From: Verrucomicrobiota bacterium
GTDB lineage: Bacteria > Verrucomicrobiota > Verrucomicrobiia > Limisphaerales > CANJXF01
Length of the DNA stretch: 46,515 bases
Assembly (NCBI GenBank): GCA_038214755.1
Contig: JBBQRQ010000033.1
Span: 1-46,515, forward strand
Reading direction: 5' to 3'
In this document: positions 12,339 through 43,103 of the stretch, piece by piece
How the letters are laid out: every line of letters starts with the position of its first letter
Position numbering within the stretch: the first letter of the stretch is position 1
Program-made: the position numbers and the translations under genes
Notes under the pieces: generated by a model
Database searches by the model: none
What the model saw: only the letters and a program-made list of their open reading frames with translations
Told to the model about the DNA's origin: nothing

Positions 12339-12473
12339 GTAGCGCAGCTTTGCAAGCTGCCGTATCGCAGGTTTAAAACCTGCGGTGGCTCAAAACGATT
12401 GGAGCGCGTCAGGTTTTTCGAGCATCCTGCCGGTTGCAAACCGGCGATACGGCAGGATGCAATCCTGCGCTAC
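12339..12473. repeat. GTAG-type REP doublet (REPIN-like)
   Basis: GTAGCGCAG...CTGCGCTAC ends with four internal hairpins (GCAGCTT/AAGCTGC, CGCAGGTT/AACCTGCG, GCCGGTT/AACCGGC, GCAGGAT/ATCCTGC). Confidence 0.85.
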
Positions 12474-12565: not shown

Positions 12566-13405
12566 GTGGAAATCAGGAAAGCAGTTATCACGGCGGCGGG
12601 AAAAAATCAGCGCACCCTCCCGTTGCAAACGCTGGTCGATCGTGACGGCATTCAAAAAACCGCGCTCTGCATCATTATCGAAGAAATCTTGCGGGCGGGC
12701 GTCGAGGAAATTGGCGTCGTCGTTTCTCCCGGCGATCAAAATGCGTATCGAATCGCAGCGGGCAATTATGCGAGCCGCTTGCAATTTTTTGAACAATCCG
12801 CGCCGCTCGGTTACGGCCACGCCATTCAGTGCGCACAGGATTTTACAGGGGACGAATCGTTTCTCCTGCTCGTGGGCGATCACCTTTATCTTTCGCACAA
12901 CGAAGAAAACTGCGCGGAACAACTCGTGGAAATCGCAAAAAACGAAGCGTGTTCAGTCTCCGCCGTGCAAGCCACGCACGAAAGCAATCTGCCCTACTAC
13001 GGCGCGGTTGGCGGACGTTTGGTTCCCGGAAGACAACGCCTTTACGAGGTGGATCTCGTCATCGAAAAGCCGACGCCCACGGAAGCGGAACAAAAATTGA
13101 TCGTGCCCGGTTTGCGCGCTGGAAATTATTTATGTTTTTTTGGGATGCATGTTCTCACGCCGACAGTGATGCAAATTTTGGCGGAGTTGGTTTCTGATCC
13201 CCTCAGCGCCGGAGCGCAGTTGACCTCCGCGTTGACCTGTCTGGCGGAAAAGGAGCGTTATCTCGCGGCGGAATTGCAAGGCCGCCGCTACGACATCGGT
13301 GTGAAATACGGTTTGCTTTTCGCGCAGCTCGCCCTGTCGCTCGCTGGAAAAGATCGCGATGAAGTTTTGTCGCAACTGGTTCGATTGCTTGCGATGAAAC
13401 CCTGA
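12566..13405 (+). CDS. GalU-like sugar-phosphate nucleotidyltransferase
   Basis: [36 protein letters not shown] motifs; GTG start. Confidence 0.85.
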
Positions 13406-13408
13406 GTC

Positions 13409-16400
13409 ATGCCGGGAAAATTAATTCAAATTATCACCGCTTCGGACGCAGCCGTTCGCGATCAATCCCTCGACTCTTTTTGCCAGCAGGCCACATTGGA
13501 AAATTTATTGGCGGAAGGCGCCGAACTGGAAGCGTTTCGTCACCGAAGTGAAAATCTTTATGAACGGGTTCGCGCCTTGTTTTTCCTCTACGCGATTCAT
13601 CGGTTTCATTTGCCGCAAAAATTAGATGACGCGATTTCCACCAAGCGTCCGGTAGCATCTGCCTCTGGCGGGTGCGAAATTACTTCCTCTCTTCCCTCTG
13701 AAAAAGTCGAATGCAACGACGAGTCTTTTCGCACCCGCCAGAGGCAGATGCTACCCGACGAAGGTTCGAACGCGCTGATTCCTTTTCGCGGTTACGAACA
13801 GCTTCTTCAACGCCGATTCGAGGAGGCCATTGAAATTTTTCTTCATTCACAAAACTCAAAAGGAGCAAGCGACACGATTTCCAGCGCGCTCGCCTCGGCG
13901 TATTATCGGCTCGGAATTCAAACGCTCGCCGACCAGGTCCGTCGCAGCGTCCGCTCCGTGCGAGGCAATCAATGGATGTTTCGCATGGGTCATCCCGCGG
14001 ATCAGCCGTTGCGAATTCGCCCGGAATTATTGCAACGCGCCGACGACGGGAGTTATCCGATTTTGCGCGAGCTGACGCCGGTGCGAATGGATTTAACTCA
14101 CAGCGCCTGGAGCGACATTTTTTTTCTTGGAATGGATTTTCCCGAAGGTGCGAAAGTTTTGAACATCTCGATCAACCTCGGCGTGAAAGGCCGCGACGCC
14201 GCACCAAAACCACCGGTCGAAGCGTATCTCCGCGTCATCGAAGAACCCGTGTTGCGTCTGACGAGCGTCGATCTTGGCGCGACCGTTGACATCACAAATC
14301 TCAACGAAGTTTTTGATTTCGCGAAAGATTATCTCGGTCTGCTCAAAGCTGCGGTGATCGCGGCGGGAATTGTTCCGCCCGGCATCGAAGGGTCGGGACA
14401 AAATCTTTCTGATTTGCTCGCACGAATTGTTGGAACGGGTCATGGACTCGAATTGGTGAGCAATGTGAATAGTATCCCCAAAGGATCGCGTCTTGCCGTT
14501 TCAACCAATCTTCTCGCCGCGCTGATTTCCGTTTGCATGCGCGCAACCCGCCAGGCGCAATCGCTCGAAGGCACACTCGAAGAAAACGAACGCCGTCTGG
14601 TTTTGGCCCGCGCCATTCTGGGCGAATGGCTCGGAGGTTCCGGCGGCGGCTGGCAGGATTCTGGCGGCGTGTGGCCCGGAATAAAATTGATCGAGGGCGT
14701 TTTGTCGGAGGAAGGCGATCCTGAATTTGGCGTGAGCCGGGGACGCCTCATGCCGCAACACAAAATTCTCGACTCAAATTTTGTGTCATCGGAGATGCGC
14801 GAAAAATTACAGCAGAGCCTCGTGCTGGTTCATGGCGGCATGGCGCAAAATGTCGGACCGATTCTGGAGATGGTGACGGAAAAATATCTCCTCCGCTCCG
14901 AAGCCGAATGGAAAGGACGACAACAGACGCTTGGAATTCTCGAAGAAATTTTGTCTGCGCTTCGCGAAAAAAATGTTCAAGCGCTCGGCCAGGCAACGAC
15001 CCGGAATTTTGAAGGTCCATTGCAAACGATCATTCCATGGGCGAGCAATTTTTACACAGAGACTTTGATCCAGCGTGTCCACTCTGAATTCGCTGAAAAT
15101 TTCTGGGGCTTTTGGATGCTCGGCGGGATGTCCGGCGGCGGAATGGGTTTCATGTTTTCGCCGGACAAAAAGGCGCGGGCGCAAATCCGCCTGCAGGAGA
15201 TCATGTCCGAGACAAAACGCGAATTGGAAAACGCGTTGCCGTTCGCAATGGAGCCGGTGGTTTATGACTTCGCCATCAATGAGAATGGCACCTTCGCCGA
15301 TTTGCTTGCTGGAGAAAAAGCGCTTTTGCCCGCGGGATATTACGCACTGACCATTCCGCAATTGCTGCGACTCGACCCACGCACTTTGCCCGCACTGCGT
15401 CGCGCCGAGTTGGATCGATTCAGCGCCGCGTCGCGCCGCAAACCTGAATTGGGCGGGATGATGCAAATTTTGTTCGACCGGCTTTTACCCAAGTTGAAAC
15501 AAGAGGACGCCAGCCAGCAAAGTCTCGCGGCGTTGCTCGACCAAAACGGTTTCGATCGCGAGCAACATGAAAAAATTCGCGCGGACTTGAAAGATGGACG
15601 GATCGGATTGGCGCAAAATCGTTTGCCGTCCAACGTGAAAATTGAGGACGTACCCGAGGACGTGATCGATGTTAGTGGAGCAGACTTCCAGTCTGCTGTT
15701 GGGGCTTCCAGCCCCAGTAGCTACGCGGGCAAGATGCCCGCAGAAGCAGACAGGATGTCCGCTCCACTAGTGTCTGCCTCAGTGGTGTCTGCTACACTGC
15801 CAAGAGCCAAGCCTGTCGCGTTACCTTTTATTCCATTCGAGAAAGGACGTCCGGCAACGATTCAAAGACGTCGTTTGCCTCATTGGCAACAGGAAGGCGC
15901 GACTTACTTCGTCACCTATCGATTGGCGGACGCTCTACCGATGCGGGTTTTGCGACAATGGCAACAGGAACGCGACCATTGGTTGCGACAAAATCCGAAG
16001 CCGTGGCCGCCGGAAAAAGAAGAAGAATTCAACGAATTATTTCGTAACAAACTGGAAGAACAGTTGGATCGCAATTACGGCTCCTGCGTCTTGAGTGAAT
16101 CAAACATCGCGGAGATTGTGGAAACCTCTCTCCGGTTTTTTGATGGTTCGCGTTATCAACTGGGAAGTTTTGTGGTCATGCCCAACCATGTGCATGTGTT
16201 GGTTCGTCCCGTGATGAACCATTCCCTTTCAGAAATTCTCCATTCGTGGAAATCGTTTACTGCGAACAAAGCAAACGAAGTGCTTAAACGCAGAGGAACT
16301 TTTTGGCAGGATGAATCGTTCGATCACATCGTCCGGGATGAAACTCAATTGCAGCGCTTTGAGCGATACATTGTGGAGAATCCCGCGAAAGCTCGTCTGC

Positions 16401-17728
16401 ACGCGAAGGCGCATCGGCTGGGATATGGATCAGGTCATTCCGCTGGAGAAAACCAAAGCAGTCCGACAGCGCAAAGTAGTGGAGCAGGCTTCCAGCCTGC
16501 TTCTGGGGCTTCCAGCCCCAGTCTCGCGGGCAAGATGCCCGCCGCGGCAGACAGGTTGTCTGCCCCACTACAATTAGGTCTCGCTGCCCTCGCCGCAGGA
16601 AAAATTGCTGTTGTCACACTCGCGGCTGGCTCTGGGACGCGGTGGACGCAGGGCGCGGGAGTCGTAAAAGCGTTGCATCCATTTTGCAAACTGGCGGGAC
16701 AGCATCGCACTTTCATCGAAACGCATCTTGCGAAAAGCCGTCAGACTTCAAAAAAATACGGCGTCGCTTTGCCACACATTGTCACCACGAGTTATCTGAC
16801 GCATTCCGCCATCGAAACATTTTTGCTGCGCGAAAATAATTATGGTTACGACGGCCCGTTGCTGCTTTCCGAAGGACGCGCCATTGGTTTGCGTTTGGTT
16901 CCGATGGAACGGGATCTTCGTTTTGCCTGGGAAGAAATGCCGCAACAACTTCTCGACGAACAGGCGCAAAAGGTGCGCGAAAGTTTGCACGCCGCTCTCA
17001 TCGGTTGGGCCAAACAGGCGGGTGAAGGGAGCGATTACGCAGACAATTTGCCGAGCCAATGTTTGCATCCGGTCGGACATTGGTACGAAGTGGCGAATCT
17101 GTTTCGCAATGGAACTTTGCAACGGTTGCTTGAGGAAAATCCGCGACTGAATTATTTATTGCTGCACAACATTGACACGCTCGGCGCGAATGTTGATCCC
17201 GCGTTGCTGGGACTTCATATCAGTGAAGGCGCGTGTCTCTCCTTTGAAGTTATCACCCGTCGAATCGAAGATCGGGGCGGCGGTTTGGCTCGGGTTAACG
17301 GTGCCGTTCGTTTGGTCGAAGGCTTGGCCATGCCGAGTGAAGAAGCGGAATTCGATCTCTCGTTTTACAATTCGATGACGACTTGGATCAACCTGGACAA
17401 GCTGCTCGAGGTTTTCAAATTAAGTCGTGAAGAAATTTCCGACGAAGAAAAAGTCTCAGTCGCCATTCGTAATCTCGCGGCGAGAATGCCTACTTATATC
17501 ACGTTGAAAGATGTGAAAAAGCGGTGGGGCCATGGACAAGAAGACACTTTTCCCGTAGCGCAATTTGAAAAACTGTGGGGCGACATGACCGCCTTGCCGG
17601 AAGTCGATTGCAAATTTTTCGTCGTTCCGCGAATGCGCGGCCAGCAGTTGAAAGATCAGGCGCAACTCGACGGCTGGTTGCGCGACGGCTCGGCGGCGTA
17701 TGTTGAGTCGTTGTGCGATTGGGATTAG
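13409..17728 (+). CDS. GHMP sugar kinase / UDPGP-family pyrophosphorylase fusion with an in-frame RAYT transposase domain
   Basis: kinase motifs [28 protein letters not shown]; pyrophosphorylase motifs [34 protein letters not shown]; transposase motifs lie between the two domains. Confidence 0.9.
13651..13755. repeat. GTAG-type REP doublet in frame inside the kinase gene
   Basis: 29-bp perfect inverted arms GGTAGCATCTGCCTCTGGCGGGTGCGAAA; 105 bp; same arms intergenic at 43024-43103. Confidence 0.92.
15673..15769 (+). repeat. left REP cassette of the RAYT insertion
   Basis: TAGTGGAGC...GCTCCACTA ends; hairpins GCAGAC-TTCCA-GTCTGC, TGGGGC-TTCCA-GCCCCA, GCGGGCA-AGA-TGCCCGC. Confidence 0.9.
16476..16571 (+). 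repeat. right REP cassette of the RAYT insertion
   Basis: GTAGTGGAGCAG...CTGCCCCACTAC; diverged direct repeat of the left cassette. Confidence 0.9.
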
Positions 17729-34290: not shown

Positions 34291-34764
34291 GGGCGCATCT
34301 CACGGATGTGTTGCCCAAATGTTTTTCCATCGCGTGTAGGGCAGGCTTTCCAGCCTGCCGGTTCCGGGGACTTTCTAGTCCCCGGAAATCTGCGAGAAAA
34401 ACGTCAAATCATTTTTTTTGAAACTGGAAAGTTTCGTAACCGGCAGGCTCGAAAGCCCGCCCTACGATTTGGGCAACACGCCCTCACTTTCCTGCAATGT
34501 TCGTTTCAAATTTCATTAGCACCCGGCTTCAGCCGGGTGTTGAGGTCGCGAGGCCTAGTTCAACCGCTTTAGTTTGCTCAATGTGGGAAACCGCTGAAGC
34601 GGTTTGAGGGTCGCAATCTGCTCCTGTTCACCCGGCTGAAGCCGGGTGCTAATGAGAGTTCTCCTGAAGCCGGGTGCTAATGAGAGTTCTCCTGAAGCTG
34701 GGTGCTAATGAGAGTTCTCCTGAAGCTGGATGCTAATGAGAGGTTGCAGAAAGTGAGATACACC
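34291..34764. mobile_element. nested MITE/REP composite
   Basis: outer ends GGGCGCATCTCAC..TTTCCTGCAA / TTGCAGAAAGTGAGATACACC; inner element 34304-34483 flanked by TCAC direct repeats; GTAG doublet at 34336-34465. Confidence 0.85.
34636..34742 (+). repeat. 28-bp tandem repeat, about 3.8 copies
   Basis: CTGAAGCCGGGTGCTAATGAGAGTTCTC at 34636, 34664, 34692 and 34720, with progressive substitutions. Confidence 0.92.
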
Positions 34765-37545: not shown

Positions 37546-37669
37546 GTAGGGCGGGCTTTCCAGCCTGCCGGTTACGAAACTTTCCAGTTTCGTAAATTAT
37601 TTGACTTATTTGCGGATTCAGTGGGGACTGAAAGTCCCCGCCACCGGCAGGCTGGAAAGCCTGCCCTAC
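37546..37669. repeat. GTAGGGC-type REP doublet; inverted relative of 34336-34465
   Basis: GTAGGGCGGGCTTTCCAGCCTGCCGG...CCGGCAGGCTGGAAAGCCTGCCCTAC; supplies the TAG stop of the S8 peptidase. Confidence 0.9.
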
Positions 37670-43023: not shown

Positions 43024-43103
43024 GGGTAGCATCTGCCTCTGGCGGGTGCGAATAACAAAATTCCAGATAGCGATGCCGCACCCGCCAGAGGCAGATGCTA
43101 CCC
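43024..43103. repeat. GTAG-type REP doublet with the same arms as 13651-13755
   Basis: GGGTAGCATCTGCCTCTGGCGGGTGCG / CGCACCCGCCAGAGGCAGATGCTACCC. Confidence 0.92.

What the first reader, a model, noticed from the sequence alone, without database searches (positions are those of the whole stretch)
15673..16571. RAYT transposase and its two REP cassettes sit in frame inside a metabolic enzyme
Seen: ~900 bp with no stop codon lie between the GHMP kinase half (..[12 protein letters not shown]) and the pyrophosphorylase half ([20 protein letters not shown]..). The insert encodes RRRLPHW, YFVT, the HUH motif MPNHVH, FWQ..FDH..RD and YIVENP, and both flanking REP cassettes are translated. No obvious dedicated start or RBS precedes the domain. 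Established: RAYTs are HUH/Y1 nucleases related to IS200/IS605 TnpA, normally stand-alone genes flanked by non-coding REPs. Inference: this is a frame-preserving mobile unit expressed as an internal domain of the host protein, an intein-like lifestyle without splicing. It could be the source of related GTAG repeats in the window.
Basis: partly seen in the sequence, partly recalled or inferred. Interest (0 to 1): 0.92.

Follow-up and report, generated by a model that had tools for sequence, protein, structure and literature searches.

The report
Swappable transposase cassette translated inside enzyme
An intact-looking DNA-cutting transposase gene and its hairpin ends are read as part of a sugar-activating enzyme, and related bacteria carry the same spot empty or filled with a different cassette, which suggests a mobile element that lives as a protein domain and is exchanged between copies of one gene.

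Summary
Confirmed. A 900-nt unit (15672-16571: REPIN, RAYT/TnpA-REP core, REPIN) lies in frame in a 1439-codon GHMP-kinase/UDP-sugar-pyrophosphorylase gene of a Verrucomicrobiota-type genome. It sits in a loop inside the pyrophosphorylase fold, not between the halves. Of the 120 best homologues, 86 carry a RAYT at this site, 33 are empty and 1 has a REPIN only; 8 of 8 congeners are empty. All 90 embedded copies checked keep HUH and the catalytic Tyr; dN/dS is 0.09-0.19. Flanking REP type follows the RAYT tree, not the host tree, and near-identical host alleles often carry unrelated cassettes, so cassettes are replaced at one site. The cognate REP has 93 copies here and 0-1 in the empty congeners, and this is the only RAYT in the assembly that it flanks. 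Best reading: a site-faithful, non-splicing, probably active mobile domain. Expression, cleavage and the transfer route are untested. REPtrons and REP-only coding inserts are published; my searches found no paper on embedded RAYTs. This scan reported the habit before in other genes and in this gene in another genome.

The parts
12566..13405 (+). GalU-like nucleotidyltransferase gene directly upstream of the host gene
   Evidence: NTP_transferase E 2.7e-9; ends 3 nt before the host ATG
13409..17728 (+). Host gene, 1439 aa: N-terminal domain, fucokinase-like GHMP kinase, UDPGP/UAP-type pyrophosphorylase; single copy in the assembly
   Evidence: FKP kinase domain E 3e-10; UGPases; 8yp3 Z 29.2
13651..13755 (.). 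Second in-frame REP pair, of the genome's most abundant family (309 copies); part of an insertion of about 44 aa in the host N-terminal domain
   Evidence: z -12.6
15672..15770 (+). Left REPIN (four hairpins, degenerate feet TTAG/CTAG); translated; predicted disordered
15771..15820 (+). Degenerate partial REP repeats and spacer, translated
   Evidence: (family D4)
15821..16420 (+). RAYT/TnpA-REP core: HUH (MPNHVH), guide-contact residues W-Q, D-H, R, catalytic Tyr (YIVENP); no stop of its own
   Evidence: 4ER8 Z 13.5, rmsd 3.1, 138 aligned; 4ER8 E 8e-8
16476..16571 (+). Right REPIN (intact GTAG ... CTAC), direct repeat of the left one at 804 nt; translated; predicted disordered

Best explanation
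The unit is a REPtron (RAYT gene plus cognate REPs) that has given up its own stop, and usually its own start, and is made as an internal folded domain of the host enzyme, tethered by disordered REP-coded linkers in a tolerant loop. Shown: anatomy, reading frame, conserved catalytic residues, purifying selection, patchy distribution, replacement of one cassette by another at the same site, RAYT and REP type inherited together. Inferred: (1) the fusion is translated and the host enzyme still works; (2) the embedded domain nicks and rejoins single-stranded DNA beside its GTAG hairpins as free TnpA-REP does, and so spreads its REP family through the genome; (3) whole cassettes move horizontally between alleles of the same gene, most likely by recombination or nick-stimulated strand exchange close to the loop, and are lost by deletion, leaving an empty loop or a lone in-frame REPIN; (4) rarely a cassette colonises a loop of another gene and founds a new site-faithful lineage.
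For: 86 of 120 homologues filled, 33 empty, 1 REPIN-only. Presence needs 28 changes on the host tree, at least 23 forced by strong branches. REP type needs 10 changes on the RAYT tree and 36 on the host tree; label-free flank distance correlates with RAYT distance given host (partial rho 0.22, 0 of 300 permutations) and not with host given RAYT (-0.08). 52 of 91 close host pairs carry distant cassettes. AU tests reject 4 of 4 host clades on the RAYT alignment. Congeners G511/G544: host dS 0.29-0.59, RAYT dS 1.63, different REPs. HUH in 90 of 90, Tyr in 90 of 90. Core dN/dS 0.09-0.19 in close pairs. Cognate REP pattern: 93 matches here, 0-1 in each of 8 empty congeners; G511 and G544 each hold only their own cassette's REP (6 vs 0, 0 vs 16). 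Model: RAYT core mostly pLDDT 85-97, REP peptides below 50, host segments on both sides confident. RAYTs cluster by host gene (26 changes, shuffled mean 90.7).
Against: No expression, proteomic or biochemical data. No recently duplicated identical cassette in this genome (other RAYTs are at most 52% identical). No consistent co-conversion tract next to the site, which recombinational homing would tend to leave. Monophyly of this host's RAYTs (SH-aLRT 95) did not survive adding rows (4 changes, DnaE-embedded copies nested), and sampling was centred on this query. The left REPIN has degenerate feet. In G570 the swapped cassette's REP has no match outside its own contig. No close pair includes the window's own copy, so its dN/dS is not measured. 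REP classes and the AU-tested clades were chosen after the trees were seen. Repeat counts in incomplete assemblies (62-97%) can be too low.
Confidence: 0.62

Rival explanations
1. One ancient insertion, inherited vertically as a domesticated accessory domain and lost many times; REP differences arise in place by 'orthoswitch' (new REP class at an orthologous RAYT, Nunvar et al. 2013).
For: RAYTs of this host are nearly one clade; host and RAYT distances correlate weakly (rho 0.23); the four closest cassettes lie in one host clade; orthoswitches are published (PMC3686654, passages).
Against: The RAYT protein itself changes with the REP and groups with RAYTs of distant hosts that share the REP type; host alleles 0.035-0.06 apart carry RAYTs 1.2-1.8 apart; synonymous divergence of the core far exceeds the host's in G511/G544.
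Confidence: 0.1
2. Repeated independent insertion without site memory: REPtrons land at random, survive only in frame in tolerant loops, and this loop is a hot spot (often already REP-tagged).
For: No co-conversion; REP-like peptides recur alone in this loop and in two other loops of the gene; lone REPINs of this family lie in frame in AlaRS, a sulfite-reductase-type flavoprotein and other genes here; some RAYT clades mix hosts (CarB/MqnA).
Against: Strong clustering of RAYTs by host gene; none of the 11 DinG-type, 12 CarB, 9 LeuS or 8 HsdR RAYT lineages was seen at this site, and no free-standing RAYT fell among the 100 at this site.
Confidence: 0.17
3. The RAYT is a functional partner recruited by the host enzymes (for example tethering them to REP DNA or RNA), kept for the cell's benefit rather than as a selfish unit.
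For: Purifying selection; many hosts act on nucleic acids; RAYTs are argued to be domesticated (10.1101/2021.07.10.451892, passages).
Against: Most alleles lack it (2 of 64 class-sample genomes read carry it; 8 of 8 congeners empty); hosts are functionally unrelated (sugar enzyme, CarB, LeuS, HsdR); fast turnover.
Confidence: 0.07
4. The cassette is removed or bypassed during expression (RNA or protein splicing, DNA excision between the direct repeats, or internal initiation), so the full fusion is not the working form.
For: Direct repeats 804 nt apart would collapse in frame; in-frame ATGs at 15734 and 15755.
Against: No intein family in Pfam and no intron family in Rfam; strict frame keeping in all copies would be needless if it were spliced as RNA; most cassettes have inverted half-REPINs, not direct repeats; no stop follows the RAYT.
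Confidence: 0.04

Closest known systems
REPtrons: RAYT/TnpA-REP genes flanked by REPs (E. coli TnpA-REP, PDB 4ER8); class 2, nearest to subclass 2.7 of Quentin et al. 2018 (PMC6006769)
   Same: Fold (4ER8 Z 13.5; profile E 8e-8), HUH and Y..NP motifs, W-Q/D-H/R guide contacts, no C-terminal serine tail, GT[AG]G-footed flanking REPs, dispersed cognate REP family.
   Different: No stop of its own and translated with its REPs inside a host protein; phylogeny not congruent with the host locus, whereas RAYTs are described as extragenic, vertically inherited and non-jumping. Quentin et al. discarded unexpectedly long proteins as fusions or annotation errors.
Intragenic REPs of Opitutus terrae and RPEs of Rickettsia (Di Nocera et al. 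2013, PMC3733652, sections 15 and 16 read); REP insertions within tnpA-REP genes (subclass 2.4)
   Same: Palindromic repeats translated in frame in loops of housekeeping proteins, notably in Verrucomicrobia.
   Different: Those are non-autonomous inserts of 20-82 aa; here the transposase itself is part of the insert.
Inteins with homing endonucleases (own knowledge, no call)
   Same: In-frame nuclease inside a conserved gene, site-faithful lineages, filled and empty alleles, horizontal exchange.
   Different: No splicing domain, so the host must tolerate the domain; single-strand HUH/Y1 chemistry with DNA hairpin ends instead of a double-strand homing nuclease; the loop is poorly conserved, not an active-site motif.
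IS200/IS605 elements and IStrons (IS608 mechanism from PMC8266576 passages; IStrons recalled)
   Same: Y1 HUH chemistry, hairpin ends, guide tetranucleotide.
   Different: Y..NP motif instead of Y...Q, no tnpB, single copy, no group I intron detected.
Host: Bacteroides FKP fucokinase/pyrophosphorylase and eukaryote-type UGPase/UAP
   Same: GHMP kinase domain (E 3e-10) and UDPGP fold.
   Different: Kinase first, pyrophosphorylase last; substrate unknown.

Membership tests
RAYT / TnpA-REP (REPtron) | HUH motif and single catalytic Tyr in a Y1 fold | tested here: met
RAYT / TnpA-REP (REPtron) | Class 2 Y..NP motif and guide-contact residues (W94, Q95, E100/D, H101, R104 of E. coli) | tested here: met
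   alignment to 4ER8; residue list from PMC6006769
RAYT / TnpA-REP (REPtron) | NCBIfam NF047646 curated cut-off | tested here: not met
   73.3 bits against 80; E 1.8e-20, so a near miss of a divergent member
RAYT / TnpA-REP (REPtron) | Flanked by GTAG-footed REPs that are dispersed in the genome | tested here: met
   49 REPINs and 31 single REPs; 93 pattern matches
RAYT / TnpA-REP (REPtron) | Free-standing, extragenic gene | tested here: not met
   in frame within a 1439-aa ORF
RAYT / TnpA-REP (REPtron) | Vertical inheritance congruent with the host | tested here: not met
   (host gene tree, not a species tree)
RAYT / TnpA-REP (REPtron) | REP-dependent ssDNA cleavage and strand transfer | not testable with these tools
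   needs the assay of PMC8266576
TnpA-Y1 subclass 2.7 | [ND]HVH, WQ, YI[LR][NQ]NP-like motif, E100 to D, no serine tail, long REPs | tested here: inconclusive
   motifs fit (Y motif here YIVENP); the authors' HMMs were not available
Intein | Hint splicing domain | tested here: not met
   Pfam finds only UDPGP and Y1_Tnp; flanks are REP-coded and predicted disordered
Homing element (works like) | Filled and empty cognate alleles with horizontal exchange at one site | tested here: met
Homing element (works like) | Co-conversion of flanking sequence | tested here: inconclusive
   no consistent excess divergence next to the site
Homing element (works like) | Nuclease cuts the empty allele | not testable with these tools
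   no assay
IS200/IS605 or IStron | Y...Q motif, multicopy, tnpB or group I intron | tested here: not met

The most novel reading that the evidence does not exclude
A distinct class of homing element: an HUH/Y1 transposase cassette that lives only as an unspliced domain of conserved proteins, stays active from inside the fusion, breeds its own REP family in each genome it enters, and displaces or refills cognate alleles by a single-strand, nick-based route with sharp ends.
Probability: 0.35. Interest if true: 0.93.

Novelty: new variant of a known kind. Interest (0 to 1): 0.82.

Why it matters
RAYTs are described as extragenic, vertically inherited and unable to move themselves, and why they persist is an open question. 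Here whole RAYT-REP units persist by being wired into the reading frame of host genes, which purges nonsense and frameshift mutations, and they turn over horizontally at one site. Natural filled, empty, REP-only and swapped alleles of one gene make RAYT mobility, RAYT-REP specificity and the cost of carriage directly testable. It also means that annotation pipelines label such genes as either a transposase or an enzyme and that long RAYT proteins were filtered out of a family survey.

Tried and rejected
Misassembly: rejected; the one long joint (13757 to 16477) has a 24-nt side in repeats and was not used. RNA evidence: no RNA holder listed. Single-sequence fold gave pLDDT 35 and was discarded. 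Foldseek returned only the pyrophosphorylase domain; phmmer of the core alone found no PDB match, the profile did. Strict monophyly of this host's RAYTs: seen, lost; the careful and mixture trees did not finish; 5 long-branch rows were left out. Co-conversion tracts: three tests, no consistent signal, although the window's own 14 residues left of the site are only 43% identical to its nearest empty alleles (84-85% further out) and P0003 is 46% identical to its sister on the right (96-97% further out). Internal promoter: none upstream of or in the cassette. Intron or other RNA family: only sub-threshold miRNA-hairpin hits on the N-terminal REP pair. Metagenome scan gave few same-host loci. Paper searches without a description of embedded RAYTs; the library lacks most subscription papers, and I did not open the supplements of PMC3733652 (list of intragenic REPs, REPtron list) or PMC6006769, which could list such a fusion.
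Full report
OBSERVATION. The window holds one ORF at 13409-17728 (+), 1439 aa. The core is bracketed by two four-hairpin REPINs, 15672-15770 and 16476-16571, direct repeats 804 nt apart, both folding far better than shuffles (z -9.1 and -8.4). The unit is 900 nt foot to foot; only the host frame is open, and none of 20,000 base shuffles was. A single contig of run X1 covers 13732-16887 without a difference at the depth of its neighbours; that run may be the source of the assembly, so the independent argument is the recurrence in orthologues.

HOST AND SITE. The host is a fucokinase-like GHMP kinase fused to a eukaryote-type UDP-sugar pyrophosphorylase, downstream of a GalU-like gene, single copy in the assembly. 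Source labels of near homologues say Verrucomicrobiota. A model of residues 628-1439 built on 100 sequences has mean pLDDT 78; the RAYT core is mostly 85-97, both REP-coded linkers are below 50, and the host strand before and helix after the insert are confident. Structural alignment to a UAP-type enzyme runs from model residue 73 to 812 (8yp3, Z 29.2, rmsd 4.1, 360 aligned), which starts about 55 residues before the insert, and the core aligns to E. coli TnpA-REP (4ER8, Z 13.5, rmsd 3.1, 138 aligned). So the cassette lies in a loop within the pyrophosphorylase fold. The profile alignment to 4ER8 keeps HUH, the W-Q, D-H and R positions reported to contact the GTAG guide, and the catalytic Tyr.

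DISTRIBUTION. Of the 120 best homologues, 86 have a RAYT in this loop, 33 are empty (linker 16-28 aa against 308 here) and one (P0075) has only a REPIN peptide of the same type as the window's. That list is biased by the query. In an even sample of 400 other genomes of the class, 92 had the gene; I read the loop in 64 of them: 2 carry a RAYT, 7 have linkers above 30 aa (REP hairpins evident in the DNA of several), 55 are empty. In 400 genomes of the order, 16 gave matches that include both host and cassette. All 8 genomes of the same genus have the gene with an empty loop.

CONSTRAINT. Among 90 embedded copies, 90 keep HUH and the WQ..FD motif, 89 have Y...NP and the last keeps the Tyr; 22 have a Met in the left flank and none has a stop. 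Nei-Gojobori dN/dS of the core is 0.09-0.19 in the six closest distinct pairs, near the host's 0.05-0.15; no close pair includes the window's copy. In the DNA of the cassettes printed the layout is mostly GTAG- or GTGG-led hairpins on the left and their inverse on the right, so the cassette resembles one large REPIN with the RAYT in its spacer; full REPINs on both sides, as here, are a minority.

TURNOVER. On a host tree without the linker (188 rows), presence needs 28 changes, at least 23 forced (shuffled mean 62.9); a filled and an empty allele can be 96-97% identical (P0003, P0072). Seven hand-defined REP classes (87 of 90 rows typed, rules written after seeing the first RAYT tree) need 10 changes on the RAYT tree and 36 on the host tree; the label-free flank distance gives the same answer (partial rho 0.22 against -0.08). 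Of 91 host pairs closer than 0.15, 52 carry RAYTs more than 0.7 apart and 35 less than 0.4 (pairs not independent). AU tests on 40 of the rows reject 4 of 4 host clades, chosen post hoc (p 0.003 to 1e-54). In congeners G511 and G544 host dS is 0.29 and 0.59, core dS 1.63, with different REPs. Flanking host sequence shows no consistent co-conversion. RAYTs cluster by host gene (26 changes for 18 labels, shuffled 90.7), but the 100 copies from this host are not strictly one clade once DnaE-embedded copies are added.

ACTIVITY, INDIRECT. The genome has 13 RAYT-like loci; three are embedded in long ORFs: this one, a DinG-type helicase (C64) and a PriA-type helicase (C88), the last two named from motifs and, for C64, tree neighbours. 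The window's REP family has 49 REPINs and 31 single REPs, and no other RAYT has it within 330 nt. A pattern for it matches 93 times here and 0-1 times in each of 8 empty congeners (62-97% complete). G511 and G544 each hold only their own cassette's REP (6 vs 0; 0 vs 16, cassette copies included). In a third genus four carriers of one cassette type have 5-10 matches and the genome with a swapped cassette has 1; its own REP occurs only on the cassette's contig. Within the window the other GTAG repeats belong to other families.

BREADTH. Of the 80 closest RAYT loci in species-representative genomes, 50 lie in frames above 330 aa: 4 in this host and 45 of the other 46 with a second Pfam family (CarB 12, LeuS 9, HsdR 8, PriA 3, Eco57I-type 3, DinG-type 2, MqnA-type 2, six single cases); some are terminal fusions or cut by contig ends. 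Further DinG-type, DnaE, PriA and SNF2 hosts appear.

MECHANISM. Established: TnpA-REP cleaves and rejoins ssDNA near GTAG-footed hairpins (PMC8266576, passages). Inferred here: the cassette is expressed from the host's signals as a tethered domain; the frame constraint removes nonsense and frameshift damage; the domain spreads its REPs; cassettes pass between alleles of the same gene and are lost by deletion, sometimes leaving a REPIN (collapse of the window's direct repeats would stay in frame). How a cassette finds the same loop again is the weakest step: a guide of four bases cannot give such specificity, and recombinational homing should leave tracts that I did not detect, although later recombination with relatives could erase them.

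KNOWN AND NEW. Read: PMC3733652 (sections 15, 16, passages), PMC6006769 (section 17, passages), PMC8266576, PMC3686654, 10.1101/119735 and 10.1101/2021.07.10.451892 (passages only). They describe REPtrons, REP-only coding insertions (most GTAG cases in Opitutus terrae), orthoswitches and vertical RAYT inheritance; one survey discarded long fusions. Seven searches found no description of RAYTs embedded in host proteins; supplements were not opened. Earlier notes of this scan report the same habit in purH, valS, leuS, alaS, metH, a BREX methyltransferase, PriA of this genome and this gene in another genome; these are unchecked notes and not support.

VERDICT. Real feature; a RAYT by sequence, fold and REP association, but not a free-standing, vertically inherited one; works like a homing element without splicing. 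New variant of a known kind, interest 0.82.

Noticed in passing
window 13651-13755: A second REP pair, of the genome's most abundant family (309 copies), is translated in the N-terminal domain of the same host gene; among the 13 RAYT-like loci only the PriA-embedded one is flanked by this family.
   Followed up: partly
G000:C64:12492-9580 (-) and G000:C88:20601-17590 (-): Two more REP-flanked RAYTs in frame, in a DinG-type and a PriA-type helicase of the same genome.
   Followed up: partly
G000:C77:19305-19404, C64:15270-15366, C93:14924-15023, C51:29562-29643: Lone REPINs of the window's family are translated inside alanyl-tRNA synthetase, a flavodoxin/FAD/NAD (sulfite reductase-type) protein, a DUF7133 protein and an amidohydrolase.
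   Followed up: partly
host gene, around residues 69-71 and 339-340 of the empty allele (L146, L124, L125, L127): Short inserts, several REP-like, recur at two other loops of this gene in other genomes.
   Followed up: no
G000:C10:59202-60080: A free-standing RAYT interrupted by a stop codon flanks a large REP family (more than 100 copies), a possible recently inactivated REPtron.
   Followed up: no
G000 intergenic REPINs, e.g. C1:87205-87300, C14:7607-7703: Many copies share about 12 or more flanking bases beyond the GTAG/CTAC feet, so the unit that moves is probably larger than the REPIN.
   Followed up: no
window 12339-12473, 29882, 30908, 34336-34465, 37546-37669, 40667, 43026-43101: GTAG REPs of at least six other families lie in the window.
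   Followed up: partly
window 12566-17728: The GalU-like gene plus kinase/pyrophosphorylase fusion is itself an uncharacterised sugar-activation pair with unknown substrate.
   Followed up: no
L257 versus L151 and L253: RAYTs close to this host's lineage sit at two different positions of DnaE, suggesting jumps between host genes.
   Followed up: partly
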